Shown: positions 328-36,106 of the stretch, piece after piece | How the letters are laid out: the number at the start of each line of letters is the position of its first letter | Numbering within the stretch: position 1 is the stretch's first letter | DNA from: Shigella phage SHSML-45 | Reading direction: 5' to 3' (one strand) | Length of the DNA: 64,000 nucleotides | Sequence record: KX130863 | Program-made: the position numbers and the translations under genes | The notes under the pieces: generated by a model | Database searches by the model: none | Told to the model about the DNA's origin: nothing | What the model saw: only the letters and a program-made list of their open reading frames with translations

Positions 328-750
328 TTATTGAGTTACCCCATCACTGATAAATACTTTACCCTCCATTATACGAAAAGAGCTAATAGCTGATCCTATG
401 ACATCTCGTGTCATAATTATATCATAATAACCAGCAAAACGTTGTCTTGGGTTATACTTATCACGTTCTTTAGATGCTTTTTCACCAATATTAGTAACGT
501 CTGCAACGGAAAGACTAATTGCAGCAGCACCTTGAGCAGCATCAATAACACGAGTTTTAAAGTTAGCTAGAACCTCGGCGTTCTCATATAAACTAGATTT
601 AATAGTTCCTCGGAGTGAATACCCCGTCAAGTTAACAGGAACTTCTGTTGGTGGATATACACTATCATCAACATCCATAAATTGCATGATAAGACCATAA
701 GGTACTTTTTCATCAACAACAATATCAATAACTCGGTTTTCTGTACTCAT
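328..750 (-). CDS. small tail protein, p132-like (140 aa)
   Basis: 140-aa ORF immediately downstream of the pb4-like gene; size and position match T5 p132. Confidence 0.5.
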
Positions 751-755
751 TATAA

Positions 756-23791: not shown

Positions 23792-24058
23792 ATGAAAAAG
23801 TTTGTAATTGCACTAGTTGCCGCAGTTATGTTATCTGGTTGTGCACCTGCTCCCAAACCATTTTGTACTGGATTTGTAAAATCTTTTGGAGGTGCCGGAG
23901 AAGAACATTACGGCCTCAAGGTTCAAAAAGTTCGTATTAAGGGAGATCGCTTTCCAGTAGTACAGCTCCGTACTAAGTTTGGGTGGTGGGATCTCAGTCA
24001 GTTTGACCTTAAATACGGTGATTGTAAATTTAAACTAGAGCAATCTAATTACTTGTAA
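23792..24058 (+). CDS. llp: lipoprotein Llp-like (lytic conversion / receptor-blocking), 88 aa
   Basis: Signal peptide plus lipobox (VMLSGC) at the N-terminus; encoded divergently beside the receptor-binding protein gene. Confidence 0.65.
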   Translation: MKKFVIALVAAVMLSGCAPAPKPFCTGFVKSFGGAGEEHYGLKVQKVRIKGDRFPVVQLRTKFGWWDLSQFDLKYGDCKFKLEQSNYL

Positions 24059-24235
24059 TTAGTATAAAGCAAAAAGACATCCAAGTAAACTAAATTTTTT
24101 ATTTCTTGGACGGTATACTGGCAGAAAACACTACATAAGAAAAGTAGAAGTCCTTCTAGGAGTTCACAGGCACGGTTGGTTATGCCCAAATTATAAAATA
24201 TTTTAAAATACCACATTTATAGGAGCATGAAAGAT

Positions 24236-24364
24236 ATGTCAAACAAAAGAAAGAGCAGACGTGGAGAAGTGTACGATAGCTGGATTAATAGCTTTGGATT
24301 CGGAACTATCCTATTCTTTATTTTCGTAGGTTTTTGGTTAGCAGCTATGGCGGGGTGGATTTAA
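24236..24364 (+). CDS. small membrane protein (42 aa)
   Basis: AGGAG RBS before ATG; basic N-terminus then hydrophobic helix (GTILFFIFVGFWLAAMAGWI); below the ORF-track size cutoff. Confidence 0.45.
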   Translation: MSNKRKSRRGEVYDSWINSFGFGTILFFIFVGFWLAAMAGWI

Positions 24365-24471
24365 TGGAATGGGTAATTATTGCATTACTAGGGATTGTGA
24401 TTATCGGGCAATGTATTTTAGATATTCACTTAGCTAGAATTGAAACTTTATTACTGGAGAAGCGTAAATGA
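24364..24471 (+). CDS. small membrane protein (35 aa)
   Basis: ATG overlaps the preceding stop (TAATG); hydrophobic N-terminus MEWVIIALLGIVIIG. Confidence 0.4.
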   Translation: MEWVIIALLGIVIIGQCILDIHLARIETLLLEKRK

Positions 24472-24662
24472 TGGAAGTAGTAGCTACATTAATAGTATTA
24501 GTAGTTTGGGCAGCTTTCATTATTTCTTACACCGCGTATGTTCGCCTAAAAACTCTAGAAGCTCAGGTAAAACAGCAACAATTTGCTATAGAAAAAGTAG
24601 TAGAACTGCAACGTTGTGATAGTACCCGTATTCTGCAAATTGAGAGGGAATTAGATGTTTAG
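24468..24662 (+). CDS. small membrane protein (64 aa)
   Basis: ATGA start/stop overlap with the upstream ORF; one predicted TM helix then charged tail. Confidence 0.5.
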   Translation: MMEVVATLIVLVVWAAFIISYTAYVRLKTLEAQVKQQQFAIEKVVELQRCDSTRILQIERELDV

Positions 24663-24900
24663 TATTATAATTGCTTTTATTATCGGGGTAATCGCGGGAG
24701 TTTTCGGAATGACTGCGGCTATTAACAAGCATCGTAAGTATACTGCGGAAGTATCGCGGGAGATTGCGGAAAGGGAGCGGAAGTTTGAAGAGAAACGTGC
24801 GGAGTTTGAGCGGGAGTGGAATGATGGTTCTCGGGCGTCGCGGAAGAGATTTCGTGAGTTTAGACCTGAACATAGGTTTGATGACCCTTCTATGCGCTAA
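24655..24900 (+). CDS. small membrane protein with Arg/Glu-rich tail (81 aa)
   Basis: Overlaps the upstream ORF; N-terminal TM helix (IIIAFIIGVIAGVFGMTAAI), highly charged C-terminus. Confidence 0.5.
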   Translation: MFSIIIAFIIGVIAGVFGMTAAINKHRKYTAEVSREIAERERKFEEKRAEFEREWNDGSRASRKRFREFRPEHRFDDPSMR

Positions 24901-24942
24901 TTGGGAAATCTCGAAATTTCATAAGATTACACATGGGGGTTC

Positions 24943-25482
24943 ATGGTGAAGAATAATCTAAATATACAGGAAATACAAGAAGTATTTGCTTATGATCCCG
25001 AAACTGGAGTTTTTACCTGGAAAAGAGGCAATCGTAAGGGTAAAGAAGCAGGTACTTTAAATAGGGGATATAGGCAGCTTAAGTATCGAGGGTTTAAAGC
25101 TTATGCACATCAAGTAGCTTTTGTTATTATGGAGAATAGATGGCCAGCGGAATGTGTAGACCACATAGATAGGAATAAACTAAATAATAGATGGTCAAAT
25201 TTAAGAGAGGCTTCAATTACAGAGAATAATCATAATGGCAGAATCTCAAGAGCATCATCAGGCTATCTAAATGTTACATGGCATAAAGAACTTCAGAAGT
25301 GGATGGTAAGATTACATGATAAACAGGGGCTGATAAGGGGTACTACTAAGTACTTTCCCTATAGCGGATTAGAAGATGCCGTAAATTATGCAAATTTACT
25401 AAGAAGGACATTTCATGGTGACTTTGCAATACAGGAGATGTTCAAAGGAAGTATACCAGACGTTGCCCAATTAAACAGTTAA
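24943..25482 (+). CDS. HNH homing endonuclease (179 aa)
   Basis: Motif AHQVAFVIMENRWPAECVDHIDRNKLNNRWSNLREAS typical of phage HNH homing endonucleases; paralogs throughout the window. Confidence 0.75.
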   Translation: MVKNNLNIQEIQEVFAYDPETGVFTWKRGNRKGKEAGTLNRGYRQLKYRGFKAYAHQVAFVIMENRWPAECVDHIDRNKLNNRWSNLREASITENNHNGRISRASSGYLNVTWHKELQKWMVRLHDKQGLIRGTTKYFPYSGLEDAVNYANLLRRTFHGDFAIQEMFKGSIPDVAQLNS

Positions 25483-25529
25483 TTAGCGCTAAAATGACTT
25501 TTGCCAAATTCTTTGGATTACGTACGCGT

Positions 25530-25550
25530 GGGTGGGTGCAGTGGGTTGGG
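25530..25550 (+). other. G-quadruplex-type motif
   Basis: Four GGG tracts with short loops (GGGTGGGTGCAGTGGGTTGGG) in an intergenic region. Confidence 0.4.
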
Positions 25551-25603
25551 CGAAAATACTTAGTCTGCTAACCGCCACCCCCGTTACTATTACCATGCTA
25601 ACT

Positions 25604-25640
25604 GTTTCATCCTGCAACCATTTTAATTGCAGGATGAAAC
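25604..25640. terminator. perfect 14-bp stem hairpin between convergent genes
   Basis: GTTTCATCCTGCAA...TTGCAGGATGAAAC followed on the plus strand by a T-rich stretch; lies between the plus-strand HNH gene and the minus-strand dmp-like gene. Confidence 0.5.
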
Positions 25641-25657
25641 TATTTCAACTTTAATTA

Positions 25658-26392
25658 TTACGCGACTTTTAGTTTCTCAATATATTGTTGCGGGCTGCAA
25701 CTATATTCTGCGCGTTCTTCCTCGGTCATACTTTCCCAACATAATTGCAGGCGGTCGGCTAGGAATTGATAATCATTATCATCGTCGAGCGATTCATCAA
25801 TAAAGGTTTCACCTATCAATGTAACCCCAATCGATAGAATATCGTTAATAGCTTGCGCGTCCAGCGTTTTAAATCCGTATGACGCCGCCGCTGATAGCAC
25901 GCCTTTATGATCATCAATCATCGTAAAATCAGCGTTTGGATATAGCTGTTTAAATAATTCAAAATAATAAGATTTATATACCGCGTCCTTACTGTGGTAT
26001 ATCTCGCTAACTTTATCAGCCTCAAAATATTTGTGTAGTGTATCACGGGAAAACACGCGGATATTACTATCACCACGACCGCGCAACCCTTGTTTACGCA
26101 AATAATAATAGTCCGACTTGCTCATTAGTCGAGCGGTGCAAATAATGTTTAAAGTATTTGCGTCATTCATGCACTGGCGCATATATGTAACAAGGGGCAA
26201 TAGTGTATCTTGCATTATTAAATCATGTTTGCAGGCTTCATTTTTATACTTATTTAAATCTAAATTGCCCTCGCTATCAAAGCAAGGCGCTACACGATGA
26301 AACGAATTAACGATAGTGCCGTCCAGATCCCAGATCATGACGCGGGAAATATGCGGGAAATTACGGGTAATATTCGTTTTAACTTGATTCAT
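25658..26392 (-). CDS. dmp: 5-prime-deoxyribonucleotidase Dmp-like (HAD superfamily), 244 aa
   Basis: N-terminal HAD motif IWDLDGT; 244 aa as T5 Dmp; adjacent to the A1-like gene. Confidence 0.6.
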   Translation of the reverse strand: MNQVKTNITRNFPHISRVMIWDLDGTIVNSFHRVAPCFDSEGNLDLNKYKNEACKHDLIMQDTLLPLVTYMRQCMNDANTLNIICTARLMSKSDYYYLRKQGLRGRGDSNIRVFSRDTLHKYFEADKVSEIYHSKDAVYKSYYFELFKQLYPNADFTMIDDHKGVLSAAASYGFKTLDAQAINDILSIGVTLIGETFIDESLDDDNDYQFLADRLQLCWESMTEEERAEYSCSPQQYIEKLKVA

Positions 26393-26420
26393 TTTATTAC
26401 GTTCTCCATTTGAGGGATTA

Positions 26421-26454
26421 GATTAATTCAGCATTACCCGCTAGTAAATAGCGG
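26421..26454. promoter_or_regulatory. conserved palindromic motif upstream of the dmp-like gene
   Basis: CATTACCCGCTAGTAAATAGCGGGTAATAATAAA with an 8-bp inverted repeat; related copy at 30323-30352. Confidence 0.5.
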
Positions 26455-26472
26455 GTAATAATAAATTAACTA

Positions 26473-26865
26473 TTAAAGGCCATACGCAAGCGCGTCAGCG
26501 ATAAAACTAACATCCTCACCTGATACATAGGAACGAATACCCGCACAAGTATATACTTTTGCACTCATCAATTGATCATCTAGGCAAGCGGGGCAAGGCG
26601 CAACCACTGCGAAAGCTAAACCGGATTTTACCGCGTCGATGATAGTCGTTTCTTGTTTCATCGTGTCAACATAAACGCCTGCGGCCTTAATGTAACTACT
26701 TGCGCGGCCTTGCGTATAGGCGAAAGTAGTGATCTGTAAAGCGTCGTTAAATTCGATTAAATCATCGACAACATGCCCCGCCTCGACGTGATAACGTTCG
26801 CCATTAGAATAAACCAGAACAATAGAAGATTGAGCGCGGTCAAATGGAATATTTTGCTTTTTCAT
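26473..26865 (-). CDS. hypothetical pre-early protein (130 aa)
   Basis: ORF with RBS, GC-richer codon usage like neighbours; no recognisable motif. Confidence 0.45.
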   Translation of the reverse strand: MKKQNIPFDRAQSSIVLVYSNGERYHVEAGHVVDDLIEFNDALQITTFAYTQGRASSYIKAAGVYVDTMKQETTIIDAVKSGLAFAVVAPCPACLDDQLMSAKVYTCAGIRSYVSGEDVSFIADALAYGL

Positions 26866-26886
26866 ATTTATATAACTCCAATTAGT

Positions 26887-27396
26887 TTAATAAGGGATAT
26901 TAAATTCTTTACACTTTGATTTAACCCATTCTAAAAGAATAGATAAATCATAATTGCCTTTTGAAACATATTTATTTGTTATAGGGTTTTTAATTTTTGC
27001 CCTGTAATATTCTCCCGCTATGGGATCAACTTTATCAAGATAAATATATTTCGGTAGTTTATTACGCCTTTTATAATCACTCTTATTTGTCATATTAACA
27101 GCATGAGTAACTAGGCGTAAATTATTTATATCGTTGTTAACGGGGTAAGAAATTATTTTATGATCTATATCTAAATCAGGGTTAATTTCTTTATTAAATA
27201 AAACCCAAATTAAACGATGAGCTTTATATAATTCACCATTAATCATTACATCATAATAGCCTGTCTGATTTAATGTTCCCGCTACACTTCCAGCTTTCAC
27301 ACCGGGCTTACTTATTTTCCATCGTAAAAATGATGGGCTAGATTCATCATAATAAACATTCTCGTTAACTTCATTAAAATCTATTTCTTTTGCCAT
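26887..27396 (-). CDS. HNH homing endonuclease (169 aa)
   Basis: Motif YKAHRLIWVLFNKEINPDLDIDHKI...NLRLVTHAVN shared with other HNH paralogs. Confidence 0.7.
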   Translation of the reverse strand: MAKEIDFNEVNENVYYDESSPSFLRWKISKPGVKAGSVAGTLNQTGYYDVMINGELYKAHRLIWVLFNKEINPDLDIDHKIISYPVNNDINNLRLVTHAVNMTNKSDYKRRNKLPKYIYLDKVDPIAGEYYRAKIKNPITNKYVSKGNYDLSILLEWVKSKCKEFNIPY

Positions 27397-27466
27397 TTAT
27401 AATCCTCCAATTAATATTGTCTCACTAATTGGAGGATTTAGGCAAATAAGATTTTAATTTATTGGC

Positions 27467-29134
27467 TTACTGTACAAAAAATTTACCGTTTTTAAAGTCA
27501 ATCAAAGTGCGCTGACCGTTTGCATAGGTAATAATATGCGTTTGCGTCCAGCTTGACGCGCCAACGTTGTAGCCCATATCAAGCGACCCCGCCACGCCAG
27601 CGGTATAAACGCCGCCGTAAATGCTAGCCGTATGAGTATGACCAGTGTTAAGGCGTCCCAACTTTTTAAACTGCTTAGGATTGCCCCGACTGCCGTTAAT
27701 GCCATTGTGACCGTGTACGCCGCATTCAATGCCAGCGATTTTAAATGATTGGTCTGTCGTCAGGAAAATAGCGTTAAATTCGCAACCTGCGACACTACGC
27801 AAGGCGTAATCTAGAACGTTAAAGGTATCATCCTTTTCAGCAATAGCGGCGTAAATCGCGGCATTTAGACGGTGATACAATTCCGCGTTTGCGGGATCGT
27901 CTTTAATGTTTGCGTTACGATCATCTAGCCAGCGTGAAAGAGCTAAATCGTGATTCGATTCAACAATAATTGTCTGCGAAAAATCGCGTTCCATTGACTC
28001 CAGCACGCGTCCAGTATCGATAAGATCATCCAGAACTTTATCACGTCCGGCGGCGTACTGTTTAGCAAGGAATACACCACTTGCGCGGTTATGATGATTG
28101 CGCGATGTAAAATCATGCACATCATGAATAAACTGATATTTCGGTTTAAGAATATCAAGCAAGCTGTTTTCACTAGCCCATGACGCAGCGGCGCAATCAT
28201 CATCTAATTTTTCGGCGTGAATATCGCCATATTGCAAGCCTAGAACATGATCGGATGTTTCAAAACATCCGGTAGGCATAGCGCAAACATTCAAATCGTA
28301 GAACATGCCGCTTTCGTCCATTGTTTCAAGCTGGCGGCAATAAAATTCTCCGTCGTCGTCAAATTCTACTAGCAAAGCGCCGAAATTATGTAAAGCCTCG
28401 GCCTTTTGCCCTGCTTTCTGCTGAATGTAGTTTTTAAGCGTAGCCGTTCCGGTTGAGTACATACGGCGCACTACTTCACCTTTTAACGCTGGCACACTTT
28501 CAGCGGTGATTTTAGCATGACCGATTGCCAGACCTTCAATATTTAAAGCCGTGGCGGTTTCTGCGAATCCTGAAAGCGGATAATCTGCCGTTGGTAAAAC
28601 GTTAATTTCAGCCATGAAAGCAAAGCGGCGATTATTCAGGAAAACATTTTTATCGCAAATATATTTATCGAAAGCTGAATCATATTTGATTCCTTCGCTA
28701 CCTTCGCCGTTTTGGAATCCATTTTTATTATAAATGAATTTACTAACCAGCAATTCAGCACCGATATATTCAGCGAATTTTTCCAGACTTGCTAAAAAGT
28801 TTTTATGCGGGAAAGTATTATTTTGAATCGACGTTAGAATAAAACGGCGACCGGATTTAACTTCCCATTGTTCGACGGTACTAGAAACAATCCCCGCCGC
28901 TTCGGGGCGATCATCATTTTTAATCGCCTTTTCAGCTTTTGCCGCTTTCGGTTTCGCTGGCTTATTTGCTTCCAACCAGTCACAAATTGCGGTCGAATGT
29001 TTCGGCGTATCATAAACAGCTTTTGAAATATCGTCGCAAACTTCCAATTTAGTAGCGCGTAAACGCTTACCGTAGAAGTTAAAATCTGCGGCCATTTTCA
29101 AAATTTGAGCTTGTTTTTCTGCGGAAATAACCAT
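27467..29134 (-). CDS. A1: A1-like pre-early protein, metallophosphoesterase-type (555 aa)
   Basis: 555 aa (T5 A1 is about this size); C-terminal His-rich metal-binding motifs (GHNGINGSRGNP...GHTHTASIYGG); sits between dmp-like and A2-sized genes. Confidence 0.6.
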   Translation of the reverse strand: MVISAEKQAQILKMAADFNFYGKRLRATKLEVCDDISKAVYDTPKHSTAICDWLEANKPAKPKAAKAEKAIKNDDRPEAAGIVSSTVEQWEVKSGRRFILTSIQNNTFPHKNFLASLEKFAEYIGAELLVSKFIYNKNGFQNGEGSEGIKYDSAFDKYICDKNVFLNNRRFAFMAEINVLPTADYPLSGFAETATALNIEGLAIGHAKITAESVPALKGEVVRRMYSTGTATLKNYIQQKAGQKAEALHNFGALLVEFDDDGEFYCRQLETMDESGMFYDLNVCAMPTGCFETSDHVLGLQYGDIHAEKLDDDCAAASWASENSLLDILKPKYQFIHDVHDFTSRNHHNRASGVFLAKQYAAGRDKVLDDLIDTGRVLESMERDFSQTIIVESNHDLALSRWLDDRNANIKDDPANAELYHRLNAAIYAAIAEKDDTFNVLDYALRSVAGCEFNAIFLTTDQSFKIAGIECGVHGHNGINGSRGNPKQFKKLGRLNTGHTHTASIYGGVYTAGVAGSLDMGYNVGASSWTQTHIITYANGQRTLIDFKNGKFFVQ

Positions 29135-29230
29135 GATAATAAAACTCCGTTAAAGGGATTAAAAACTTTTGTTATTGGCAATATTGCCAGATATAACGCC
29201 TTGAATAATAGGCGTTATAATTTGCAACAT

Positions 29231-29428
29231 TTAACTAATCGGCATTAGGCTAGAACTAACACCACAAGCAACGGCGGCAATAAAACAAAGTAAGCCCAAA
29301 CGCTTAGCTAATTTAGATTTACGTTTAAAATAATATGAATCTAAATCATTTTGAAAATAAGCGAACAATAATGAGGCCGCCATAATAAATAAGCCTAGAA
29401 TTAAAGATTCAGTAGGAAAGAAAATCAT
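29231..29428 (-). CDS. small membrane protein (65 aa)
   Basis: Two hydrophobic helices flanking a basic loop (KRKSKLAKR). Confidence 0.4.
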   Translation of the reverse strand: MIFFPTESLILGLFIMAASLLFAYFQNDLDSYYFKRKSKLAKRLGLLCFIAAVACGVSSSLMPIS

Positions 29429-29517
29429 TTTTAAAACTCCTGATTTAAGGGAAGAAAATAACTATCGCTAAACAGTTATATTATTGCCCTCCCACTAGGA
29501 AGGGCAAGGTATAACTA

Positions 29518-29934
29518 TTATTCACCTGCGGCTTGTTTTACTTCATCGGCAACGCCTAACAGTTGCGCCACGGCGTCCAGTGTTTCCAATTTTGCACTTT
29601 CCAGTGATGCCAGATCGTCAACGTCTTTGATAATGCCTGAATCGATGGCATGTTTTGCAATAACACGCACATAATGCGCTTTACGGATGGAACTACCACC
29701 GCCAACTTTACGCGGCTTATCGCTTTTCTGATACGCTTTCGCGCTGGTCAATTTTGAGCGAACAGACACGGGGGAGGCCGCGCCAACTGTTTTCGCAATT
29801 TCTTTCAGGCCGTCGCTGTTGGCGAACTCTAATCCGTTTTCATTAATTAGCTGTTGATACATGGTAACAGCCTGCTGGGTGTTTTCTTCATTCCAAGCAA
29901 ATTTTGCGGTTTTTTCGGTTTTAACGTTAGCCAT
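29518..29934 (-). CDS. A2-like pre-early protein (138 aa)
   Basis: Size and position immediately upstream of the A1-like gene match T5 A2; basic central region. Weak assignment. Confidence 0.4.
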   Translation of the reverse strand: MANVKTEKTAKFAWNEENTQQAVTMYQQLINENGLEFANSDGLKEIAKTVGAASPVSVRSKLTSAKAYQKSDKPRKVGGGSSIRKAHYVRVIAKHAIDSGIIKDVDDLASLESAKLETLDAVAQLLGVADEVKQAAGE

Positions 29935-30035
29935 GATTGTAACTCCTATCGATTTAATTTAAGGGATAAGATTAACATAATGTTAATCGTTATATACCCC
30001 GAACTACTGGGGTATATAAAAGTAACACTATAAAC

Positions 30036-30287
30036 TTATGCTACAGCTTCCCATTTTTCATTGCGCTGGGCAACCTTTACAACGTCGCCGGATTTAACCC
30101 GAACGTTATAAACGGTTTTCCCGTTGTTACTCCGTTCCGTTTCAGCGTATACCGCATCAATTACATCAAACGGCATAAGCGCCGCGCCTTTAATGCGCTC
30201 GGCCTTTCCGGTTAATTCGTCCGTTTTAGTAACGAAAGGAATAAAAACGGATTGACCAATTTTTGGCGCATTAGTAACGTTTTTCAT
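30036..30287 (-). CDS. hypothetical protein (83 aa)
   Basis: ORF preceded by a conserved palindromic upstream motif also found before the dmp-like gene. Confidence 0.45.
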   Translation of the reverse strand: MKNVTNAPKIGQSVFIPFVTKTDELTGKAERIKGAALMPFDVIDAVYAETERSNNGKTVYNVRVKSGDVVKVAQRNEKWEAVA

Positions 30288-30322
30288 GGTATAAACTCCA
30301 ATTTATTCAGTGGATTGTTCCG

Positions 30323-30352
30323 CATTACCTGCTAGAAAGTAACAGGTAATAA
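30323..30352. promoter_or_regulatory. conserved palindromic motif upstream of ORF 30036-30287
   Basis: CATTACCTGCTAGAAAGTAACAGGTAATAA, same architecture as the copy at 26421-26454. Confidence 0.5.
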
Positions 30353-30485
30353 GAAAAAATCCGCTCGCCAATATAATCAATTTAAAGAACTCCACTCAGG
30401 CCGCTATATCCCAGTTAGGGGGCGGGACACATTATGGTAAGTGCCGACCGTCAAATTTTATCAAGTTATCGCTCTTATCGAACTG

Positions 30486-30509
30486 GGTACATCTTAAAGC
30501 CTATCGGCT
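30486..30509. repeat. 24-bp inverted repeat, left copy
   Basis: GGTACATCTTAAAGCCTATCGGC matches the reverse complement of 30752-30775 with one mismatch. Confidence 0.65.
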
Positions 30510-30515
30510 AGGGTG

Positions 30516-30719
30516 TCAAACAGTTTTTTGCAGTTTTTTATGATTTTCTTTCAGGTCAATCATAATATTGCGCCAGATCATTTCTAAACCTTGCTGGCGG
30601 CCTTTCTTGTACTGCGCAAATCGGTATTTTACGGATTGCTGGGCTATTGTCAACAATTTTTTTGTTTCGCTATCTAGTGCCTTGCTAGGCTTGCCAGTTA
30701 TTAAAAGCGTTTGTTTCAT
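30516..30719 (-). CDS. small basic protein (67 aa), possibly DNA-binding
   Basis: Lys/Arg/Gln-rich; bracketed exactly by a 24-bp inverted repeat pair. Confidence 0.4.
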   Translation of the reverse strand: MKQTLLITGKPSKALDSETKKLLTIAQQSVKYRFAQYKKGRQQGLEMIWRNIMIDLKENHKKLQKTV

Positions 30720-30751
30720 ATCGTCGATTCCTTATAATATATAAGTTTACC

Positions 30752-30775
30752 GCCGATAGGCTTTAAGATATACCC
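30752..30775. repeat. 24-bp inverted repeat, right copy
   Basis: GCCGATAGGCTTTAAGATATACC; partner of 30486-30509; lies in the upstream region of ORF 30516-30719. Confidence 0.65.
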
Positions 30776-30896
30776 AATTTTTAAAGAGCGTGGCGGTAAA
30801 CTTCCCGCCGTGTAGTTCGTCATTGCCGCCCTACGAGATAAATAATAGCAAATACCAAAAATGGCGCAACCTTATTTTTGTAAAGAAACGTAAGTT

Positions 30897-31238
30897 TTAC
30901 GCCTTTCTATAGTCCCCCTTATTTTGGTTGTTTTCGGCTTGAGTTACTAACCGTAAGTTATCAATAAAATTATTACTAGGGTTACGATCAATATGATCAA
31001 TTACTAGTTTGCTATCTATTTTATAGTTAAATAATAACCACACAATACGATGCGCTAGGTAACGCTCTTTATTGAGCTGTACAGACCAATAGCCATCCTT
31101 TCTTTTAGTGCCTGCTACCCCATGAAAGGCGCAACCGGGGCGGGATACTTTCCACCGTAGGCAACTGGGACTAGTTTCATCATAGTAAAGATTATCTAGC
31201 ACGGTTTCTAAATCAATATCTTTTGTTAACTCAATCAT
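30897..31238 (-). CDS. HNH homing endonuclease (113 aa)
   Basis: Motif AHRIVWLLFNYKIDSKLVIDHIDRNPSNNFIDNLRLVTQAEN. Confidence 0.7.
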   Translation of the reverse strand: MIELTKDIDLETVLDNLYYDETSPSCLRWKVSRPGCAFHGVAGTKRKDGYWSVQLNKERYLAHRIVWLLFNYKIDSKLVIDHIDRNPSNNFIDNLRLVTQAENNQNKGDYRKA

Positions 31239-31573
31239 TAATATTCTCCTATTAGTTTCATTTGGTTATTATATTATACCAAAATTATTAGCAATGTGGC
31301 TAATACAGTTTCACCGGACGCCGTCCAGCTATTGCCTAAGTTTAAAGGAAACGGGCGCGCGAATACCACAAAACAAAGCAGATAGGCAAGTAATTTTTTC
31401 ATATATATTTGCTTTGCCCTACTTGACAAAATCTAAAAAGCTCGTGGTAGCGATAAACGGCTTATCACCTTATGATGGGATGGCTAAAAACTTCATCGCG
31501 TTCTAGGGCGTTTTAGGCGCATTCTAGCCTTGTTGATAACTTATCCCCAGAAGCAAAAATGAAATTTTCCTAG

Positions 31574-31616
31574 TTATCCACTTGACTTTTATTTTCCAGT
31601 GGATAACTACTTATTT
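31574..31616. promoter_or_regulatory. inverted pair of DnaA-box-like sites
   Basis: TTATCCACT at 31574-31582 and its complement AGTGGATAA at 31608-31616; one mismatch to the TTATCCACA consensus. Confidence 0.5.
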
Positions 31617-31835
31617 TATGAAATAAATTAATTGACTTTTGTTTGTTAGTATGTATTGAGAGAATAGTAGGCTTATAATTGCTAGGATGATAATAATGCT
31701 GGTGGATTGTAACAGCCTGAACTATTAGCAGACTACTAATCCCGTAAAATCTCATTAGCCAACTAACTATTACATAATATATAATATATACATAAATTAA
31801 TAAGAAATAATAACGATAAGAAACTATCGGCCTAA

Positions 31836-31965
31836 GTGAGAAACACTATCATTTAAGTTATCCACAAGTTTATTAACAGCACTTTTTGACTTGACACGAT
31901 AGGCGGCGATATAAGGACTTTTACACAGACTTATCCACAGGTTATCCTACTGTATAAATATACAG
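31836..31965. repeat. left arm of ~130-bp imperfect inverted repeat, containing two DnaA boxes
   Basis: TTATCCACA at 31858-31866 and 31931-31939; reverse complement of 35225-35354 matches with few mismatches over the outer ~60 bp and inner ~42 bp. Confidence 0.7.
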
Positions 31966-32231
31966 GGTAAAAAGGTAGTGTTAACAACTGCAATCAATTT
32001 TAAGCGGCCTAAATCGCATTCTAACGAGCAAAACGCTGTAGGGTAATATTAAAGTAAAGCCTTCACCAGTCGCCCTGGTGGCTCCGCCGTGTTTTGCTCT
32101 TTACTATACCGCTGCGCAGTTAGCATAAAACTAGGCGTTAGGCAAGGAAAATAAAAAGGTAAAATAAACGTTGCCCCTAGAAAGAAAATACCTTTATCAT
32201 TCTCCTACCGATTAACGAGGGAGGCCAACAA

Positions 32232-33218
32232 ATGAGGCTATATAAACCAGATAACGCAACCGTCTTAAAAGGTGCATTGCGCAACCTGCTGGACGGTAGC
32301 AGAACAACCAGCATTAAACACTTTGTTAACAAGGCCGAAGATATTCACCAAAATTTTTTTGATGATTTCGATGCCTATGATATGAGTAGTTTTTTGCAAC
32401 TGTATAAGCAGGGGGCAACGATTATCTTGTATAATCGGGATAATCACCTGCTTACTAGCAGGGGGCCGGATACCGATTTCATAATTGTAAAAGGTAGCAC
32501 AGTAAAAGCCTATGATACTGGGGCGGGCTTAGAAGTTTTTTCAATAGAAAACTATGAAGCCAACCCCAATGATCTTTATGACGTTGAAAACTTTCTTGAT
32601 TCATTTTGGCGTTATTTATCCGTTGGCTGGAATCGGTCAATTGGTGACGGGTATCGTCTGGCGGCTGTAATGGCTTTTGATGATAACGGTAATTTTTTGC
32701 TACCGCCGGAATTATATGATCGTGTATATGAAGGCGATATTGTTGACGCCGGATTCTCTTTCGAAAGAGAAGAAAGTATTGGCAATATAGAAAAACATGC
32801 TGTAAATTCTAACACTCAAAGCGTTAATACTCAAATCACTGAAAATAAAGGAAAAAACACCATGACCAAGATCGCTAATATTGTTGCCGCTAATAAATCC
32901 GCTGTTGTAAACGCTGCAAAACTGGAAGCGGGTAAAATTGCACTGACTCAAATTACGAAAGTAGCGGCGAAAAAAGCACCGTTTATGATTAAAGGTTATA
33001 TTGATACACCTATCGGTCGAGTAGTGATTGCCAACCTGCTGAGCGTAGCGGTTGACCAGTACGCCCCAAGTAACCAAAAGGCGAAAGCGGTAGCAGGGGC
33101 AGCTATGGAAGCGGCAATGCTGGAAATGGTGCAAAGTTTTAACATCGCTGAAATGATTGATGAAATGGTGAAAGGTATTGATATTTCTACTTTTACCACT
33201 AGCACCGAAAGCGAGTAA
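32232..33218 (+). CDS. hypothetical protein (328 aa)
   Basis: Long plus-strand ORF inside the inverted-repeat-bracketed segment; Ala/Lys-rich helical C-terminal third; no recognised motif. Confidence 0.55.
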   Translation: MRLYKPDNATVLKGALRNLLDGSRTTSIKHFVNKAEDIHQNFFDDFDAYDMSSFLQLYKQGATIILYNRDNHLLTSRGPDTDFIIVKGSTVKAYDTGAGLEVFSIENYEANPNDLYDVENFLDSFWRYLSVGWNRSIGDGYRLAAVMAFDDNGNFLLPPELYDRVYEGDIVDAGFSFEREESIGNIEKHAVNSNTQSVNTQITENKGKNTMTKIANIVAANKSAVVNAAKLEAGKIALTQITKVAAKKAPFMIKGYIDTPIGRVVIANLLSVAVDQYAPSNQKAKAVAGAAMEAAMLEMVQSFNIAEMIDEMVKGIDISTFTTSTESE

Positions 33219-33283
33219 TAATATTAAGCGGGGATTGTTACCCCGCTTTACTATTCCCTTGTTAACTAATAGGAGGCTAATAA

Positions 33284-33778
33284 ATGGCTGCGGAAAAATA
33301 TGGCTTCTCACTGGGAGAAGTGAGCACGGCAAAACATGATATGATCATTTTGGTCGATTGTCATACTGGCTATTGCGGAGAAGGCTGGACGGAGGAACAT
33401 TTTGTTCCCGCTGGCTGTGATCTGGACGCTTTCGCAAACGAACACGCATATGATAATGCTTCTCGTTTCGGTAGTGATGGGGAAGAAGATGAAGAAACAG
33501 GGGAATGGATTGAAAATGATAATGTATACGCGAGTCTTTATCATTATCAATTGAGTAAGTCCGGTACTTATGTAAATGGTGGCGATCCTATTAATACCGT
33601 TATGAAACTAATTATTAAACACGGTGGCGCGGAAATAATTGGTAACAAGGCGTTATTATATGCAAATCGATTAAAACAGCTTGTTTATATTCCTGATAAT
33701 TCCCGTTGGGATGAATATGCCGTTTTACAGAAAGAACTAAAACGCTGTTTCGGCGTGGAAACATTAGAAATAGTCTAA
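33284..33778 (+). CDS. hypothetical protein (164 aa)
   Basis: ORF with AGGAGG RBS 8 nt upstream; acidic central stretch (DGEEDEETGEW). Confidence 0.55.
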   Translation: MAAEKYGFSLGEVSTAKHDMIILVDCHTGYCGEGWTEEHFVPAGCDLDAFANEHAYDNASRFGSDGEEDEETGEWIENDNVYASLYHYQLSKSGTYVNGGDPINTVMKLIIKHGGAEIIGNKALLYANRLKQLVYIPDNSRWDEYAVLQKELKRCFGVETLEIV

Positions 33779-34037
33779 TGTAAAGTTTTGTAAAGGTCGC
33801 CTATTATGGCGGCCTTTTTTGTTATAATGCCTTTACACCGAAACGGTGGACTGAAAATTTTCCCTGATTTCTAGGAGGCGTTAAAATGGTTATTTTTCGA
33901 TCTATTCTGGCTAGTATCTTGGGCGCTATTTTATCACTGTTTGCAATAGCTTTCGGAGTTCACGTGGTTATTATTGGAGCAGGTATCGCGGGGTTTTCTT
34001 ACTTGTTAGGCTGTATGACTGGTAAAGGGGAATAAAA

Positions 34038-34250
34038 ATGTTAAAGAATGTTTCCCTTGCCCGTTCCAAAGGTTTTAAGCTGGTGGATGTTAACACGTTC
34101 GAGCGTCCAGATTGTAAAATCGAATATGTAGCACGCAACAAAAACGCTTTCCGTGTTACAGAAAAGAAATTTGACAAGCGCGGCAATTTGGTAGCCGAAA
34201 CGGTTAAACACTTTGCCACCTTTTACGCTGCATTTCGTGGGGTATTATGA
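34038..34250 (+). CDS. hypothetical protein (70 aa)
   Basis: ORF start-coupled to an upstream small hydrophobic ORF (33887-34035). Confidence 0.4.
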   Translation: MLKNVSLARSKGFKLVDVNTFERPDCKIEYVARNKNAFRVTEKKFDKRGNLVAETVKHFATFYAAFRGVL

Positions 34251-34365
34251 TAGCGCAAATTAAAACAGCGTTTCGTTTCTGGGGAGTGATCCTCAGCGTA
34301 TGTTTTGGCATAGTTATTATTAGCCAGCTAATGATCATTGTTGCAATCGCAGGGGAAATGCTATC

Positions 34366-34710
34366 ATGGTAATTTATGAGGGCAATCGTTTTGTTACTAA
34401 TTGCCGTCCGGCATTATTAGCAAACTATTTAAACCAGCTTTCACCAGTTTATAAAGGCGTGGTTAATATCTATGAAGGCAAAGCACATTATAAAATTTCT
34501 GCCGTTGTCACCCGTGAACTAGCGTTTCAATTTTTAACTTTTGGGTCTTGTGACGTTCAGGTTATGGGGGAAGCGTTAATAGCAGAAAATGAAAATGAAT
34601 TTACTGACATTTTCCGCAAAGTATGTACGGAGCGCCTGATTATGAAAGGCGCATATATTCAATCCACTGCTGAAAGTATTGAAACAGCATTTCGAAAAAT
34701 TGCACAATGA
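34366..34710 (+). CDS. hypothetical protein (114 aa)
   Basis: ORF overlapping the stop of an upstream small hydrophobic ORF. Confidence 0.45.
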   Translation: MVIYEGNRFVTNCRPALLANYLNQLSPVYKGVVNIYEGKAHYKISAVVTRELAFQFLTFGSCDVQVMGEALIAENENEFTDIFRKVCTERLIMKGAYIQSTAESIETAFRKIAQ

Positions 34711-34837
34711 ATAGCTGGTGGCGAAAAACACAAAGCCATAAATCTAATAATACCGCTGGGAAGCATTCCCAGCGTTTACGATTTGGTAATGGCTTCACAA
34801 TGATATTGATAATCATTCTCATTCTAGGAGCAATGGC

Positions 34838-35077
34838 ATGGCTGTAAGAATTTTACGATATGTAGAACGTAAAGAAACCGATATTATGCAACATCATTTA
34901 ACTGATGGGCAATACGCGCAATTTTTAGAAATGCAGAAAAGCGGAGCTGATACAGCAACGCTAGGAGCGTGGATCAACTCAGTTTCAACGTGTACGCATT
35001 TTGATTCATACGGGTATACGCCAGCCGAAACCGTCCAGATCTTTGACGACTACGAGAAAGAATACATAACAGACTAA
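34838..35077 (+). CDS. hypothetical protein (79 aa)
   Basis: ORF with GGAG RBS; last gene before the right inverted-repeat arm. Confidence 0.45.
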   Translation: MAVRILRYVERKETDIMQHHLTDGQYAQFLEMQKSGADTATLGAWINSVSTCTHFDSYGYTPAETVQIFDDYEKEYITD

Positions 35078-35224
35078 TAATAACGGGGCGCAACTATCGG
35101 CCCCGCTTTTTCTGGCCTTCCTCAAATTTCCCCTTATTAAAGTACCTCCTCCAAAATTAAAACGCTTAGAATGCGTTTGAGAGCGTTTTAGACCTATATT
35201 AGAGTTATTCACTACGTAGGAATA

Positions 35225-35354
35225 CTGTATAAATATACAGTAGGATAACCTGTGGATAAGTCTGTTGAAAACGCCTCAAAATCGCTAGGGTTTTGTCAAG
35301 TCAAATCGTGCTGTTAATAAACCTGTGGATAACTTAAATAACAGTGTTTCTCAC
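35225..35354. repeat. right arm of ~130-bp imperfect inverted repeat, containing two DnaA boxes
   Basis: TGTGGATAA at 35251-35259 and 35325-35333; inverted partner of 31836-31965. Confidence 0.7.
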
Positions 35355-35510
35355 TTCCCTTTCTAAATGCGAATCATTCTCAGTATGTGACTCATTCGTA
35401 TTCAACTCTGTAAATGATAACCGTTCTCATTCCCCTTTCTAAACGCGAATCATTATCATTCGCATTCAACTTCTCAAATGCGAATCAATCTCATTATCAT
35501 TCGCATTCAG
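35345..35510. repeat. imperfect tandem direct repeats
   Basis: Recurring units CCCTTTCTAAA(T/C)GCGAATCATT and TCATTCGCATTCA read directly in the sequence. Confidence 0.6.
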
Positions 35511-35515
35511 GCGAG

Positions 35516-35531
35516 CAGGGCAATTGCCCTG
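35516..35531. repeat. perfect 16-bp palindrome CAGGGCAATTGCCCTG
   Basis: Self-complementary sequence immediately before the first GTGCAAATCCGA copy. Confidence 0.7.
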
Positions 35532-35566
35532 CGCTTTTGTGCAAATCCGACATTTGCCCCCATGGA

Positions 35567-36106
35567 TTACGCGTGGGCGTGTATGTGCAAATCCGACCCA
35601 TTTTTGGTAGTGTGCAAATCCGACCCTAAAATTTCATCCCTCCATTTTACTAGAAATTCTAGATCATATGAACACTTAGACTGAGTACCATTACTAGTAG
35701 GAACATAAGCCCGGTAATAATCACCCTTTGAGGTAGTTCTAGCAACACGAATATATTTTGGAAGATTGGTTGTTTTACTGTTGGTATTTTTGCGATTTCT
35801 AGCATTTTTATAGTCTGGTATTTGTCTTAGATTCTCAGGAGAATTATTAGTGGGATCCTGATCTATATGATCTACCTGCAACTCGGGATCAATACTGCCG
35901 TTATGCAGGCAGAAAACAATCCGAGAAACTGCTAGGGTTCCCACCCCAGATACAAAGACCACATAAGACTTCCTACCTTTTCCGTCGTCCCTTAAAGTGC
36001 CTGTATGTTTTCTTTTAGGTAATCTACTCAGCCCACTGGGACTTGATGGGTCAATAAAAAATAAGTCTTTCATTTGTGCATATTCGATAGGTATATATCT
36101 TGACAT
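35567..36106 (-). CDS. HNH homing endonuclease (about 179 aa from internal start)
   Basis: Motif LAVSRIVFCLHNGSIDPELQVDHIDQDPTNNSPENLR; GGAGG RBS before ATG at 36106; the track ORF extends to 36160. Confidence 0.65.
   Translation of the reverse strand: MSRYIPIEYAQMKDLFFIDPSSPSGLSRLPKRKHTGTLRDDGKGRKSYVVFVSGVGTLAVSRIVFCLHNGSIDPELQVDHIDQDPTNNSPENLRQIPDYKNARNRKNTNSKTTNLPKYIRVARTTSKGDYYRAYVPTSNGTQSKCSYDLEFLVKWRDEILGSDLHTTKNGSDLHIHAHA

What the first reader, a model, noticed from the sequence alone, without database searches (positions are those of the whole stretch)
26421..30352. Shared palindromic element upstream of two pre-early-region genes
Sequences at 26421-26454 and 30323-30352 share the pattern CATTACC(C/T)GCTAG-4 nt-TA(A/G)C(A/G)GGTAATAA with an internal 8-bp inverted repeat. 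Both lie just 5-prime of minus-strand gene starts (dmp-like at 26392, ORF ending 30287). This is consistent with a common operator or regulatory hairpin controlling pre-early expression.
Basis: seen in the sequence. Interest (0 to 1): 0.5.

Follow-up and report, generated by a model that had tools for sequence, protein, structure and literature searches.

The report
Twin mRNA hairpins in T5-like pre-early operon
The two matching palindromes are real, but they are a pair of related RNA stem-loops sitting between genes of a T5-like phage's first-expressed operon, most likely controlling mRNA cutting or stability rather than acting as a DNA operator; this is an ordinary kind of element.

Summary
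The first coordinate was about 11 nt off.

The window is a T5-like phage, 99% identical to Salmonella phage Shivani. Both sites lie in the leftward pre-early operon (hdi, 007, A2, 005, A1, HNH, 002, dmp).
- Site 1 is the ortholog of T5's annotated "palindrome A".
- Site 2 lies about 120-175 nt downstream of the P-D/E20 promoter homolog.

Each site is the tip of a roughly 53-nt, 22-23 bp imperfect stem-loop on the mRNA-sense (minus) strand, at about -24.5 kcal/mol.

Across 29 variants, 94.6% of cells pair and 8 of 18 pairs show compensatory changes. G·U cells outnumber A·C cells 47 to 8. Loop length varies from 3 to 13 nt. Some relatives replace site 1 with an unrelated hairpin. These results rule out a duplex-DNA operator.

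Neither site has a U-tract. In Bas33 RNA-seq, 007 is the most abundant pre-early transcript, and dmp is about half of gene 002. So neither hairpin is an efficient terminator.

Nearly every intercistronic gap of this operon carries such a hairpin, across Demerecviridae.

Best reading: mRNA processing or stability punctuation, by RNase III-type cleavage or as an exonuclease barrier. Function is unproven. Interest is modest.

The parts
26419..26472 (-). Site 1 extended RNA stem-loop. It has about 23 bp with one mismatch and starts directly after the TAA stop (26475-26473) of the 002-like ORF. It is the ortholog of T5 'palindrome A'.
   Evidence: RNAfold gives -24.5 kcal/mol, z = -6.5. The covariance-model hit is 26470-26421, 69.2 bits. 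AY587007 carries misc_feature 'palindrome A' at 899-925. The consensus structure has 19 pairs.
26433..26459 (-). Site 1 apical part: a perfect 11-bp stem AUUACCCGCUA/UAGCGGGUAAU with a 5-nt loop.
   Evidence: I13
30309..30365 (-). Site 2 extended RNA stem-loop of about 23 bp. It comprises a lower stem, small internal loops and a 12-bp apical stem. It sits in the 228-nt gap between hdi (T5.008-like) and the T5.007-like ORF, in the leader of the P-D/E20 transcript.
   Evidence: RNAfold gives -24.6 kcal/mol, z = -5.0. The covariance-model hit is 30364-30312, 75.4 bits. The consensus structure has 18 pairs.
30324..30350 (-). Site 2 apical part: an 11-bp stem AUUACCUGUUA/UAGCAGGUAAU. It contains one U·G pair that would be a C·A mismatch on the + strand. 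The loop is 5 nt.
30491..30519 (-). Sigma-70 promoter, homolog of T5 P-D/E20 (T5P1): TTGACA, 17 nt, TAAGAT. The inferred start is near 30484, which places site 2 at about +121 to +173.
   Evidence: Promoter scan. T5 annotations. The sequence is the same in T5 and the window. The start site itself is inferred.
30626..30653 (-). Second strong promoter inside the hdi-like ORF (TTGACA, 16 nt, TAAAAT; 11 of 12), the positional homolog of T5 P-H22. For its transcripts, site 2 is intercistronic.
25658..26392 (-). dmp (deoxynucleoside-5'-monophosphatase), the last gene of the operon and the gene downstream of site 1.
26473..26865 (-). T5.002-like ORF, upstream of site 1.
30036..30287 (-). T5.007-like ORF, the first gene downstream of site 2.
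30516..30719 (-). T5.008/hdi-like ORF, upstream of site 2.
29465..29524 (-). Context: 60-nt window holding the A2|005 intercistronic hairpin (20 bp, no U-tract). It is the positional equivalent of T5 palindrome B. The Shivani record annotates it as a 'terminator'.
29973..30032 (-). Context: 60-nt window holding the 007|A2 intercistronic hairpin (23 bp).
29173..29232 (-). Context: 60-nt window holding the 005|A1 intercistronic hairpin (18 bp).
27389..27448 (-). Context: 60-nt window holding the A1|HNH hairpin (16 bp), which includes the Shine-Dalgarno sequence of the HNH gene.
25593..25652 (-). Context: 60-nt window holding the hairpin 3' of dmp (17-bp apical stem, 22 bp in all, no U-tract on the mRNA strand).

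Best explanation
The two palindromes are paralogous stem-loops of about 53 nt that form in the pre-early polycistronic mRNA, which is the minus strand of the window. One sits in the leader just before the first P-D/E20-driven gene (T5.007-like). The other sits between the 002-like gene and the last gene, dmp.

They belong to a set of U-tract-less hairpins, mostly 18-23 bp, that fill nearly every intercistronic gap of this operon. I propose they act after transcription as mRNA punctuation. Either host RNase III cuts them, as in the T7 early operon, or they block 3'-5' exonucleases or 5'-end-dependent decay. Either way the cistron segments would get different half-lives and abundances.

What is shown: existence of the sites, orthology to T5 palindrome A, RNA-sense folding, selection on pairing, absence of terminator tails, and read-through in a related phage.

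What is inferred: the processing or stability function, and any role for RNase III.

The sequence shared by the two sites is best explained by duplication or gene conversion between intercistronic cassettes, not by a common sequence-specific ligand.
For: Identity and context.
- The region is 99% identical to Salmonella phage Shivani's terminal-repeat pre-early region.
- Gene order follows the Shivani, HdH2 and T5 records.

Structure.
- The minus-strand RNA folds at -24.5 and -24.6 kcal/mol (z = -6.5 and -5.0).
- The plus strand reaches only -20.6 and -19.7 kcal/mol.

Covariation.
- On 29 distinct variants of both sites, 94.6% of cells are paired, against 86.0 ± 0.9% in shuffles (0 of 500 shuffles reach the observed value).
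- Eight of 18 pairs change on both sides.
- Structures slid by 1-3 columns pair in only 25-58% of cells.
- G·U cells number 47 and A·C cells 8.

Structure is kept while sequence is lost.
- Site 1 is replaced by hairpins of unrelated sequence in the HdH2-type and L034-type phages.
- The L035-L038 types keep a recognisable but strongly diverged version of the stem with multiple compensatory changes (covariance-model hits of 27-32 bits for L036-L038). The composite helix stays at 21-24 bp in 23 of 25 variants.
- Klebsiella KPN4, Serratia Slocum, Providencia PSTCR5 and Vibrio D30 each have an unrelated GC-rich hairpin just upstream of dmp.

Not terminators.
- The terminator scan does not call either site.
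- The 8-nt tails after the stems hold 0-4 U.
- Bas33 carries both hairpins.
- Its RNA-seq TPM values run hdi 1232, [site 2], 007 12199, A2 5207, 005 1171, A1 4925, 003 1143, 002 4425, [site 1], dmp 2218 (PMC13250531 Dataset S1).
- This non-monotonic profile suggests segmental stability differences rather than progressive termination.

Operon-wide pattern.
- Seven minus-strand hairpins of 16-23 bp lie in the window's pre-early gaps.
- The same holds in the gaps of distant relatives.

Compatibility with RNase III.
- E. coli RNase III substrates typically span two helical turns.
- Internal loops restrict cleavage to one phosphodiester (all three from PMC1540722).
- Here an 11-12 bp apical stem sits on a mismatch or internal loop plus an 8-10 bp lower stem.
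Against: - No transcript 5' or 3' ends have been mapped, so no cleavage or decay barrier has been observed.
- I found no paper on RNase III processing of T5 mRNA.
- In Slocum, PSTCR5 and Vibrio D30 the dmp-proximal hairpin is only 9-10 bp. That is too short for RNase III and fits a generic barrier or terminator-like hairpin better.
- The Bas33 numbers are gene-level maximum group means at 20 min, from another phage. Short genes may be under-counted.
- The roughly 2-fold drop from 002 to dmp is also what a leaky attenuator would give.
- The near-identity of the two apical stems in this phage is not needed by a purely structural role.
- G·T asymmetry cannot separate RNA from single-stranded DNA of the same strand.
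Confidence: 0.5

Rival explanations
1. The hairpins are leaky intrinsic terminators or attenuators. They stop a fraction of RNA polymerases, lower dmp expression relative to upstream genes, and tune entry into the operon at site 2. Phage protein A1, which associates with RNA polymerase, might modulate this.
For: - The HdH2 record annotates its different-sequence site-1 counterpart as 'putative transcriptional terminator, -15.40'.
- Shivani annotates the A2|005 hairpin as a terminator.
- The stems are GC-rich.
- dmp TPM is about half that of gene 002 in Bas33.
- The PSTCR5 counterpart is followed by UCUUUAUACUU.
- A1 is reported to associate with RNA polymerase and to dampen pre-early transcription.
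Against: - Neither site has a U-tract, and the same holds in 48 ortholog variants, where the tails hold 0-4 U of 8, mostly 1-3.
- The terminator scan does not call them, although it calls the true U-tract terminators elsewhere in the window.
- The gene right after site 2 is the most abundant pre-early transcript in Bas33.
- Transcript levels rise again downstream of other gaps (005 to A1, 003 to 002). Termination cannot produce that.
Confidence: 0.15
2. The hairpins are a shared cis-site for a trans-acting RNA-binding factor, a phage pre-early protein or a host protein. The factor recognises the common stem AUUACCYGCUA/UAGCRGGUAAU and jointly controls translation or decay of the first cistron (007) and the last (dmp). 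This would be a translational operator.
For: - In this phage and many Tequintaviruses the two sites share about 45-50 nt, including flanks (GCKGAA, AAUCC), which is more than structure alone requires.
- Both sit at a similar distance (36-40 nt) from a start codon.
- Pre-early expression is known to be shut off in an A1-dependent way.
Against: - Loops are not conserved in sequence or length (UUUAC, AUAAA, CUUUC, GAAAG, a 13-nt loop in T5).
- Stem positions covary freely.
- Site 1 is replaced by unrelated hairpins in phages that keep the site-2 type.
- Variants of the two sites do not change in concert across phages.
- The Shine-Dalgarno sequence and start codon lie outside the helix.
Confidence: 0.1
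3. The hairpins are generic intercistronic insulators or recombination cassettes. They might keep neighbouring translation-initiation regions from mis-folding, or persist because short palindromes are copied between gaps by recombination, with no dedicated processing role.
For: - Hairpin cassettes are swapped within otherwise conserved flanks.
- Serratia phage Slocum has its own pair of near-identical hairpins (AUGCCCUAGCUUAUAUAGURGGGCAU) in two other gaps of the same operon.
- HNH homing-endonuclease genes are inserted variably in this region.
Against: Compensatory evolution, retention of the helix (21-24 bp in 23 of 25 site-1 variants and 18-26 bp at site 2 within the T5-like clade), and the family-wide positional conservation of a hairpin before dmp all indicate selection on the structure itself. 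A structural role of this kind overlaps with the best explanation rather than excluding it.
Confidence: 0.15
4. The palindrome is a duplex-DNA operator bound by a dimeric DNA-binding protein, such as phage A2 or a host repressor, that controls pre-early transcription.
For: - The element is palindromic.
- A2 is annotated as a DNA-binding protein.
- Two copies lie in the same operon.
Against: - Half-site spacing varies from 3 to 13 nt, and half-site sequence is replaced in relatives.
- Pairing is strand-asymmetric in G·U.
- Neither copy overlaps a -35, -10 or +1 position.
- There is no third copy at the other pre-early promoters.
Confidence: 0.04

Closest known systems
Bacteriophage T5 'palindrome A' (GenBank AY587007, misc_feature 899-925)
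   Same: It is orthologous to site 1. It occupies the same 80-nt gap between ORF002 and dmp, has the same stem ATTACCCGCTA/TAGCGGGTAAT, and differs by one loop base.
   Different: The T5 record gives no function and does not link it to a second copy. The T5 counterpart of site 2 (about 4513-4569, with a 13-nt loop) is unannotated in the two T5 records I read.
RNase III processing signals of the T7 early operon (for example R1.1)
   Same: - Strong sigma-70 promoters drive a polycistronic early mRNA.
- Irregular hairpins of about two helical turns lie in the intercistronic gaps.
- An apical stem of at least 11 bp sits on an internal loop and a lower stem.

Substrate rules come from PMC1540722. 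The layout of the T7 operon is from my own knowledge.
   Different: - No cleavage has been shown for T5-like phages.
- There is no sequence similarity.
- The proximal and distal box determinants are only partly matched.
- Some distant relatives have stems too short for RNase III.
Intercistronic mRNA-stabilising hairpins and 3'-exonuclease barriers (such as REP elements in malE-malF and puf operon hairpins; from my own knowledge)
   Same: A stable stem-loop lies immediately 3' of a stop codon inside an operon. It has no U-tract. Segment abundances are unequal.
   Different: The elements are not repeated genome-wide, with only two copies of this sequence family. No 3' ends have been mapped.
Rho-independent terminators
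   Same: They share a GC-rich stem-loop. Annotation pipelines have called counterparts terminators.
   Different: There is no U-tract, and substantial read-through occurs.
PeSL (promoter-early stem-loop) cassettes of T4-type phages (from my own knowledge)
   Same: Short repeated intergenic stem-loop modules lie in early regions. They appear to be exchanged between gaps and sit next to mobile HNH genes.
   Different: The elements here carry no attached promoter, and only two copies exist. This is a resemblance recalled from memory, not a test.

Membership tests
Duplex-DNA operator | Half-site sequence is conserved at orthologous positions. | tested here: not met
   Site-1 stems are replaced by unrelated sequences in the HdH2-type and L034-type phages, strongly diverged in the L035-L038 types, and unrelated in KPN4, Slocum, PSTCR5 and Vibrio D30. 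Eight of 18 pairs covary.
Duplex-DNA operator | Spacing between half-sites is fixed. | tested here: not met
   Loops range from 3 to 13 nt among orthologs.
Duplex-DNA operator | The site overlaps or abuts promoter elements. | tested here: not met
   Site 2 lies about +121 to +173 from the P-D/E20-type start. No promoter-like site lies next to site 1.
Rho-independent terminator | A GC-rich stem-loop is present. | tested here: met
   The apical stems are 11-12 bp, with 5 G-C pairs of 11 at site 1 and 3 G-C pairs plus one U·G at site 2.
Rho-independent terminator | A U-rich tract follows immediately 3' of the stem. | tested here: not met
   The tails are GCUGAAUU / AUCCCUCA at site 1 and GCGGAACA / GAAUAAAU at site 2. 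Among 48 ortholog variants the 8-nt tail holds 0-4 U. The terminator scan does not call either site.
Rho-independent terminator | Downstream transcript abundance drops strongly. | tested here: not met
   In Bas33, 007 after site 2 has 12199 TPM, the highest of the operon. dmp has 2218 against 4425 for gene 002. The evidence is indirect: another phage and gene-level data.
E. coli RNase III processing site | A quasi-continuous helix of about two turns (roughly 20-22 bp). | tested here: met
   The window's helices are 23 and 23 bp. Among orthologs, 23 of 25 site-1 variants have 21-24 bp and all 23 site-2 variants have 18-26 bp. The rule comes from PMC1540722.
E. coli RNase III processing site | [quoted passage not shown] | tested here: inconclusive
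   An apical stem of 11-12 bp sits above a 1x1 mismatch or small internal loop. This fits only if cleavage occurs at that loop, which is unknown.
E. coli RNase III processing site | Proximal and distal box base-pair determinants (PMC1540722). | tested here: inconclusive
   The bottom four pairs of the apical stem are U·G, A-U, U-A and U-A in nearly all variants. So no G-C antideterminant falls at the would-be pb2 or pb4 positions, but pb1 is not G-C. The distal-box UA/UG pairs appear only in some variants.
E. coli RNase III processing site | Cleavage depends on rnc in vivo, or purified enzyme cleaves in vitro. | not testable with these tools
   No end-mapping data were found. A literature search for T5 plus RNase III returned nothing.
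Intercistronic stabiliser / exonuclease barrier | A stable hairpin lies directly 3' of the upstream stop codon, within an operon. | tested here: met
   The site-1 helix starts at 26472, directly after the stop at 26475-26473. The same arrangement is seen in KPN4 and Slocum gaps.
Intercistronic stabiliser / exonuclease barrier | Segment stability differs, with 3' ends at the hairpin. | not testable with these tools
   Only gene-level TPM values are available. They are non-monotonic along the operon.
Any curated Rfam family | A match at or near the gathering score. | tested here: not met
   cmscan over 24000-36000 at E <= 1 gave no hit overlapping either site.
T5 palindrome A (orthology) | Same intergenic slot and alignable sequence. 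| tested here: met

The most novel reading that the evidence does not exclude
The U-tract-less hairpins in every intercistronic gap, including this paralogous pair that brackets the P-D/E20 operon, could be the cis-sites through which the pre-early protein A1 shuts off pre-early expression. A1 associates with RNA polymerase. It, or another pre-early factor, might trigger termination or mRNA cleavage at these structures. That would give a mechanism to the long-unexplained A1-dependent shutoff.
Probability: 0.07. Interest if true: 0.65.

Novelty: new member of a known kind. Interest (0 to 1): 0.3.

Why it matters
T5 pre-early expression is a classic system that remains poorly understood. The promoters are known, but nothing has been described about how the roughly 5-kb pre-early mRNA is punctuated or shut off.

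Three results give a concrete, testable layer of post-transcriptional control:
- Palindrome A has a twin in the P-D/E20 leader.
- Both fold as covarying RNA helices.
- Similar helices occupy almost every gap of the operon across Demerecviridae.

The results also correct database annotations that call such hairpins terminators. The practical impact is modest: better annotation, and guidance for engineering T5-like therapeutic phages. It would rise if RNase III or A1 dependence were shown.

Tried and rejected
- **Rfam.** A scan of 24-36 kb at E <= 1 gave nothing at either site.
- **Further copies.** A pattern search with up to 3 mismatches and a covariance-model search with filters off found only the two sites.
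- **CTAG motif.** CTAG recurs in many of these hairpins, but it is common genome-wide (301 observed against 253 expected). I made only an informal count and did not pursue it.
- **'AUCC(C)...GGAG...AUG' motif.** It turns up at dmp, A1, 007 and the HNH gene at 31238, and at few other places. I recorded it in passing only.
- **Literature.** Davison 2015 (PMC4743489) is not held. Davison's preprint discusses the repeat regions and palC-J but not these two hairpins. I found no T5 transcript-end mapping and no RNase III paper.
- **Promoter near site 1.** I looked for one that could make the palindrome an operator. None was found.
- **Proximal and distal box rules.** I tried applying them to the hairpins. 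They are uninformative without a known cleavage site.

Full report

Yes. None was expected in 100 dinucleotide-preserving shuffles. A looser core pattern with up to 3 mismatches finds only these two places, with 0.01 expected.

The second range is exact.

The inverted repeat is 11 bp rather than 8, and each copy extends to imperfect arms of 21-26 nt (I13 and I7).

Both copies lie upstream of minus-strand starts. Site 1 is 40 nt before the dmp ATG at 26392. Site 2 is 36 nt before the ATG at 30287.

**2. Where are we?**

The 5.4 kb around the sites is 99.9% identical to Salmonella phage vB_SLGBLB0002 and 99.0% to phage Shivani (Tequintavirus). In Shivani it maps to positions 64-5464 of the terminal repeat, which is the first-step-transfer, pre-early DNA.

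On the minus strand the gene order is: hdi/T5.008-like (30516-30719), T5.007-like (30036-30287), A2 (29518-29934), T5.005-like (29231-29428), A1 (27467-29134), an HNH endonuclease (26887-27396), T5.002-like (26473-26865) and dmp (25658-26392).

Site 1 is the ortholog of the T5 feature annotated "palindrome A" in AY587007 (899-925). It differs by one loop base. In phage HdH2 the same slot holds a different hairpin, annotated "putative transcriptional terminator".

Site 2 lies downstream of the homolog of the experimentally known promoter P-D/E20 (TTGACA, 17 nt, TAAGAT at 30519-30491). That sequence is shared with T5. With an inferred start near 30484, the site-2 helix occupies about +121 to +173 of a roughly 197-nt leader.

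A second promoter, the P-H22 homolog at 30653-30626, lies inside hdi. For its transcripts, site 2 is intercistronic.

**3. DNA site or RNA structure?**

I collected the region from 37 IMG/VR loci of T5-like phages and from annotated records of more distant Demerecviridae.

*Folding.* Both sites fold as long irregular helices on the mRNA-sense strand.
- The consensus structures have 19 pairs at site 1 and 18 at site 2.
- The window's own versions fold at -24.5 and -24.6 kcal/mol, with z = -6.5 and -5.0.
- The plus strand reaches only -20.6 and -19.7 kcal/mol.

*Covariation.* I aligned 29 distinct variants of the two sites jointly.
- 94.6% of pair cells are standard pairs, against 86.0 ± 0.9% in column shuffles (0 of 500 shuffles reach the observed value).
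- Eight of 18 pairs change on both sides.
- Structures slid by 1-3 columns pair in only 25-58% of cells.

*Strand asymmetry.* Wobble pairs are strongly one-sided. There are 47 G·U cells at 8 positions, against 8 A·C cells at 3 positions. The window's own site 2 shows this: it has a U·G pair on the mRNA strand that would be a C·A mismatch on the + strand.

*Loops.* Loop length and sequence are free. The window has a 5-nt loop, T5's site 2 has a 13-nt loop, and other variants range from 3 to 13 nt.

*Replacement of site 1.* Some relatives replace the site-1 stem outright, for example TCCGGCCCA/TGGGCTGGA in the HdH2 type and CCAGCCCA/TGGGCTGG in the L034 type. The L035-L038 types (TAGCCCACTAAT/ATTAGTGGGCTA, TTGCCAGCTAAT/ATTAGCTGGCAA) are strongly diverged versions of the same stem. 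The L035 and L036 types differ from each other by three compensatory double substitutions, and the covariance model still hits site 1 in L036-L038 at 27-32 bits. The composite helix stays at 21-24 bp in 23 of 25 variants.

*Distant relatives.* Klebsiella phage KPN4, Serratia phage Slocum, Providencia phage PSTCR5 and Vibrio phage D30 have dmp proteins only 46-61% identical. Each has an unrelated GC-rich hairpin in the gap just before dmp. KPN4 and Slocum also have a long hairpin before their T5.007 homolog.

*Conclusion.* These results are what selection on an RNA helix predicts. They are incompatible with a dimeric protein reading fixed half-sites on duplex DNA. One caveat remains: G·T asymmetry alone cannot exclude a hairpin in single-stranded DNA of the same strand. 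I know of no reason to prefer that reading.

**4. Are the two copies special?**

A covariance model built from both sites scores them at 75.4 and 69.2 bits on the minus strand and 41.5 and 39.6 bits on the plus strand. It finds no third copy in 64 kb; the next hit scores 16.2 bits with E = 0.12. Related phages carry at most these two copies.

The similarity covers about 45-50 nt in register. It includes the lower-stem positions and the 3' flank GCKGAA...AAUC. So the two are paralogs.

They are not alone as structures. A 60-nt sliding fold of the window shows a strong minus-strand hairpin in almost every intercistronic gap of this operon:

| Gap | Window containing the hairpin |
|---|---|
| 3' of dmp | 25593-25652 |
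| 002 / dmp (site 1) | 26413-26472 |
| A1 / HNH | 27389-27448 |
| 005 / A1 | 29173-29232 |
| A2 / 005 (T5 palindrome B slot) | 29465-29524 |
| 007 / A2 | 29973-30032 |
| hdi / 007 (site 2) | 30309-30368 |

- Their composite helices are 16-23 bp, and all but one (the 007|A2 hairpin, 5 U in its 8-nt tail) lack a U-rich tail.
- Most of the comparably stable hairpins elsewhere in the window carry classic U-runs.
- The same gap-by-gap pattern appears in KPN4, Slocum, PSTCR5 and Vibrio D30.
- Slocum has its own near-identical pair in two other gaps. This suggests that hairpin cassettes are copied between gaps.

Together with the free replacement of site 1, this makes duplication or gene conversion the best account of the shared sequence. 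A common sequence-specific ligand is not needed.

**5. What do they do?**

*Not efficient terminators.* There is no U-tract at either site or in 48 ortholog variants, where the 8-nt tail holds 0-4 U. The terminator scan does not call them.

*Read-through in Bas33.* Phage Bas33 (HildyBeyeler) carries both hairpins. Gene-level TPM values come from the published RNA-seq (PMC13250531, Dataset S1):

| Position along the operon | TPM |
|---|---|
| hdi | 1232 |
| [site 2] | |
| 007 | 12199 |
| A2 | 5207 |
| 005 | 1171 |
| A1 | 4925 |
| 003 | 1143 |
| 002 | 4425 |
| [site 1] | |
| dmp | 2218 |

- The gene right after site 2 is the most abundant, and dmp is about half of its upstream neighbour.
- Levels fall and rise again along an operon with no annotated internal promoters. 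That pattern points to segment-specific stability or processing rather than progressive termination.
- The caveats are that this is a different phage, the values are maximum group means at 20 min, and short genes may be under-counted.

*Fit to RNase III.* The architecture is an apical stem of 11-12 bp, then a mismatch or small internal loop, then a lower stem of 8-10 bp, for about two helical turns in all. This matches the general requirements for E. coli RNase III substrates: two helical turns, at least 11 bp between the scissile bond and the loop, and internal loops that restrict cleavage (PMC1540722). It also resembles the T7 early operon, which is cut at intercistronic hairpins (my own knowledge). 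The base-pair determinants are only partly matched and cannot be judged without a known cleavage site.

*Fit to an exonuclease barrier.* The site-1 helix begins directly after the stop codon of the upstream gene. In the most distant relatives it is only 9-10 bp long. Both features fit a 3'-exonuclease barrier as well as, or better than, an RNase III site.

*Position taken.* I commit to [quoted passage not shown] at about 0.5 and leave the enzyme open. The rivals are a leaky attenuator (0.15), a shared RNA-binding factor (0.1), a generic insulator or recombination cassette (0.15) and a DNA operator (0.04).

**6. Comparison with what is known, and novelty**

Site 1 is already in GenBank as T5 palindrome A, with no function assigned. 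Counterparts have been auto-annotated as terminators.

The following appear not to be described in the records and papers I could read:
- site 2 as a twin of palindrome A;
- the RNA-sense covariation;
- the operon-wide and family-wide punctuation pattern.

As a kind of element, an intercistronic mRNA stem-loop in a phage early operon is well known. This is a new member of a known kind and of modest interest. If the hairpins turned out to mediate the A1-dependent shutoff of pre-early expression, the interest would be much higher. Nothing here supports that beyond co-location.

Noticed in passing
window 27389-27448 (minus strand): A 16-bp hairpin lies in the A1|HNH gap. Its 3' arm contains the Shine-Dalgarno sequence (GGAGGA) of the HNH homing-endonuclease gene, which starts at 27396. 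This looks like RBS sequestration that would keep the endonuclease poorly translated from the read-through pre-early transcript.
   Followed up: no
window 25593-25652 (minus strand): A very stable hairpin (17-bp apical stem, -26.7 kcal/mol) lies just 3' of dmp near the physical left end. It has no U-tract on the mRNA strand. T5's record annotates a terminator there on the opposite strand (69-105 +). How the leftward pre-early transcript ends is unclear.
   Followed up: partly
window 26390-26418, 29132-29159, 30285-30315, 31236-31267 (minus strand): Pre-early genes share a translation-initiation motif, A(U/A)CC(C), 4-12 nt, GGAG, 7-10 nt, AUG. It is seen at dmp, A1, 007 and an HNH gene. The same 'AACCC...GGAG' layout appears before most pre-early genes of KPN4 and Slocum. 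It is rare elsewhere in the window, with 9 regex hits in total.
   Followed up: partly
window 26441, 29495, 30332; loci L042-L045 intercistronic gaps: The tetranucleotide CUAG sits in or next to the loop of about half of the pre-early intercistronic hairpins across the family, by eye count. CTAG is common in this genome (301 observed against 253 expected), so the significance was not established.
   Followed up: partly
window 29173-29232; L042 3350-3431; L043 3047-3123: The hairpin upstream of A1 (UAUAACGCC...GGCGUUAUA) and the adjacent palindrome GGCAAU(A/U)UUGCC are conserved in sequence between this phage and Klebsiella phage KPN4. Slocum keeps the GGCAAUUCUGCC part. Unlike the other gap hairpins, this one may be a sequence-specific site governing A1 expression.
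   Followed up: no
window 30470-30508 and 30752-30790: A 39-nt inverted repeat (85% complementary) flanks hdi. It corresponds to T5 inverted repeats A and A'. One arm overlaps the P-D/E20 core (GCCGATAGGCTTTAAGAT), so the other arm places a mirror-image copy of the promoter core on the + strand.
   Followed up: no
L043 (Serratia phage Slocum) 3047-3123 and 5416-5484: Slocum has its own pair of near-identical hairpins (ATGCCCTAGCTTATATAGT(G/A)GGGCAT) in two different gaps of the same operon. This is an independent case of paralogous intercistronic hairpins.
   Followed up: no
window 30375-30484 (minus strand); L042-L044 leaders: The leader between the P-D/E20-type promoter and site 2 is conserved. 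Distant relatives share a box (A/C)CGCUCUUUAA(A/C)AAU about 25-45 nt after the -10 element, and it occurs twice in PSTCR5, after two promoter-like sites. The window has GUUCUUUAAAUUGAUU at the matching place. Its function is unknown.
   Followed up: no
Bas33 (L047) genes bas33_0178-0185: Published gene-level TPM values along the pre-early operon are non-monotonic (1232, 12199, 5207, 1171, 4925, 1143, 4425, 2218). The three lowest values inside the operon belong to the shortest genes, and hdi is low because it lies upstream of P-D/E20. The pattern could reflect processing into short fragments or a library bias.
   Followed up: partly
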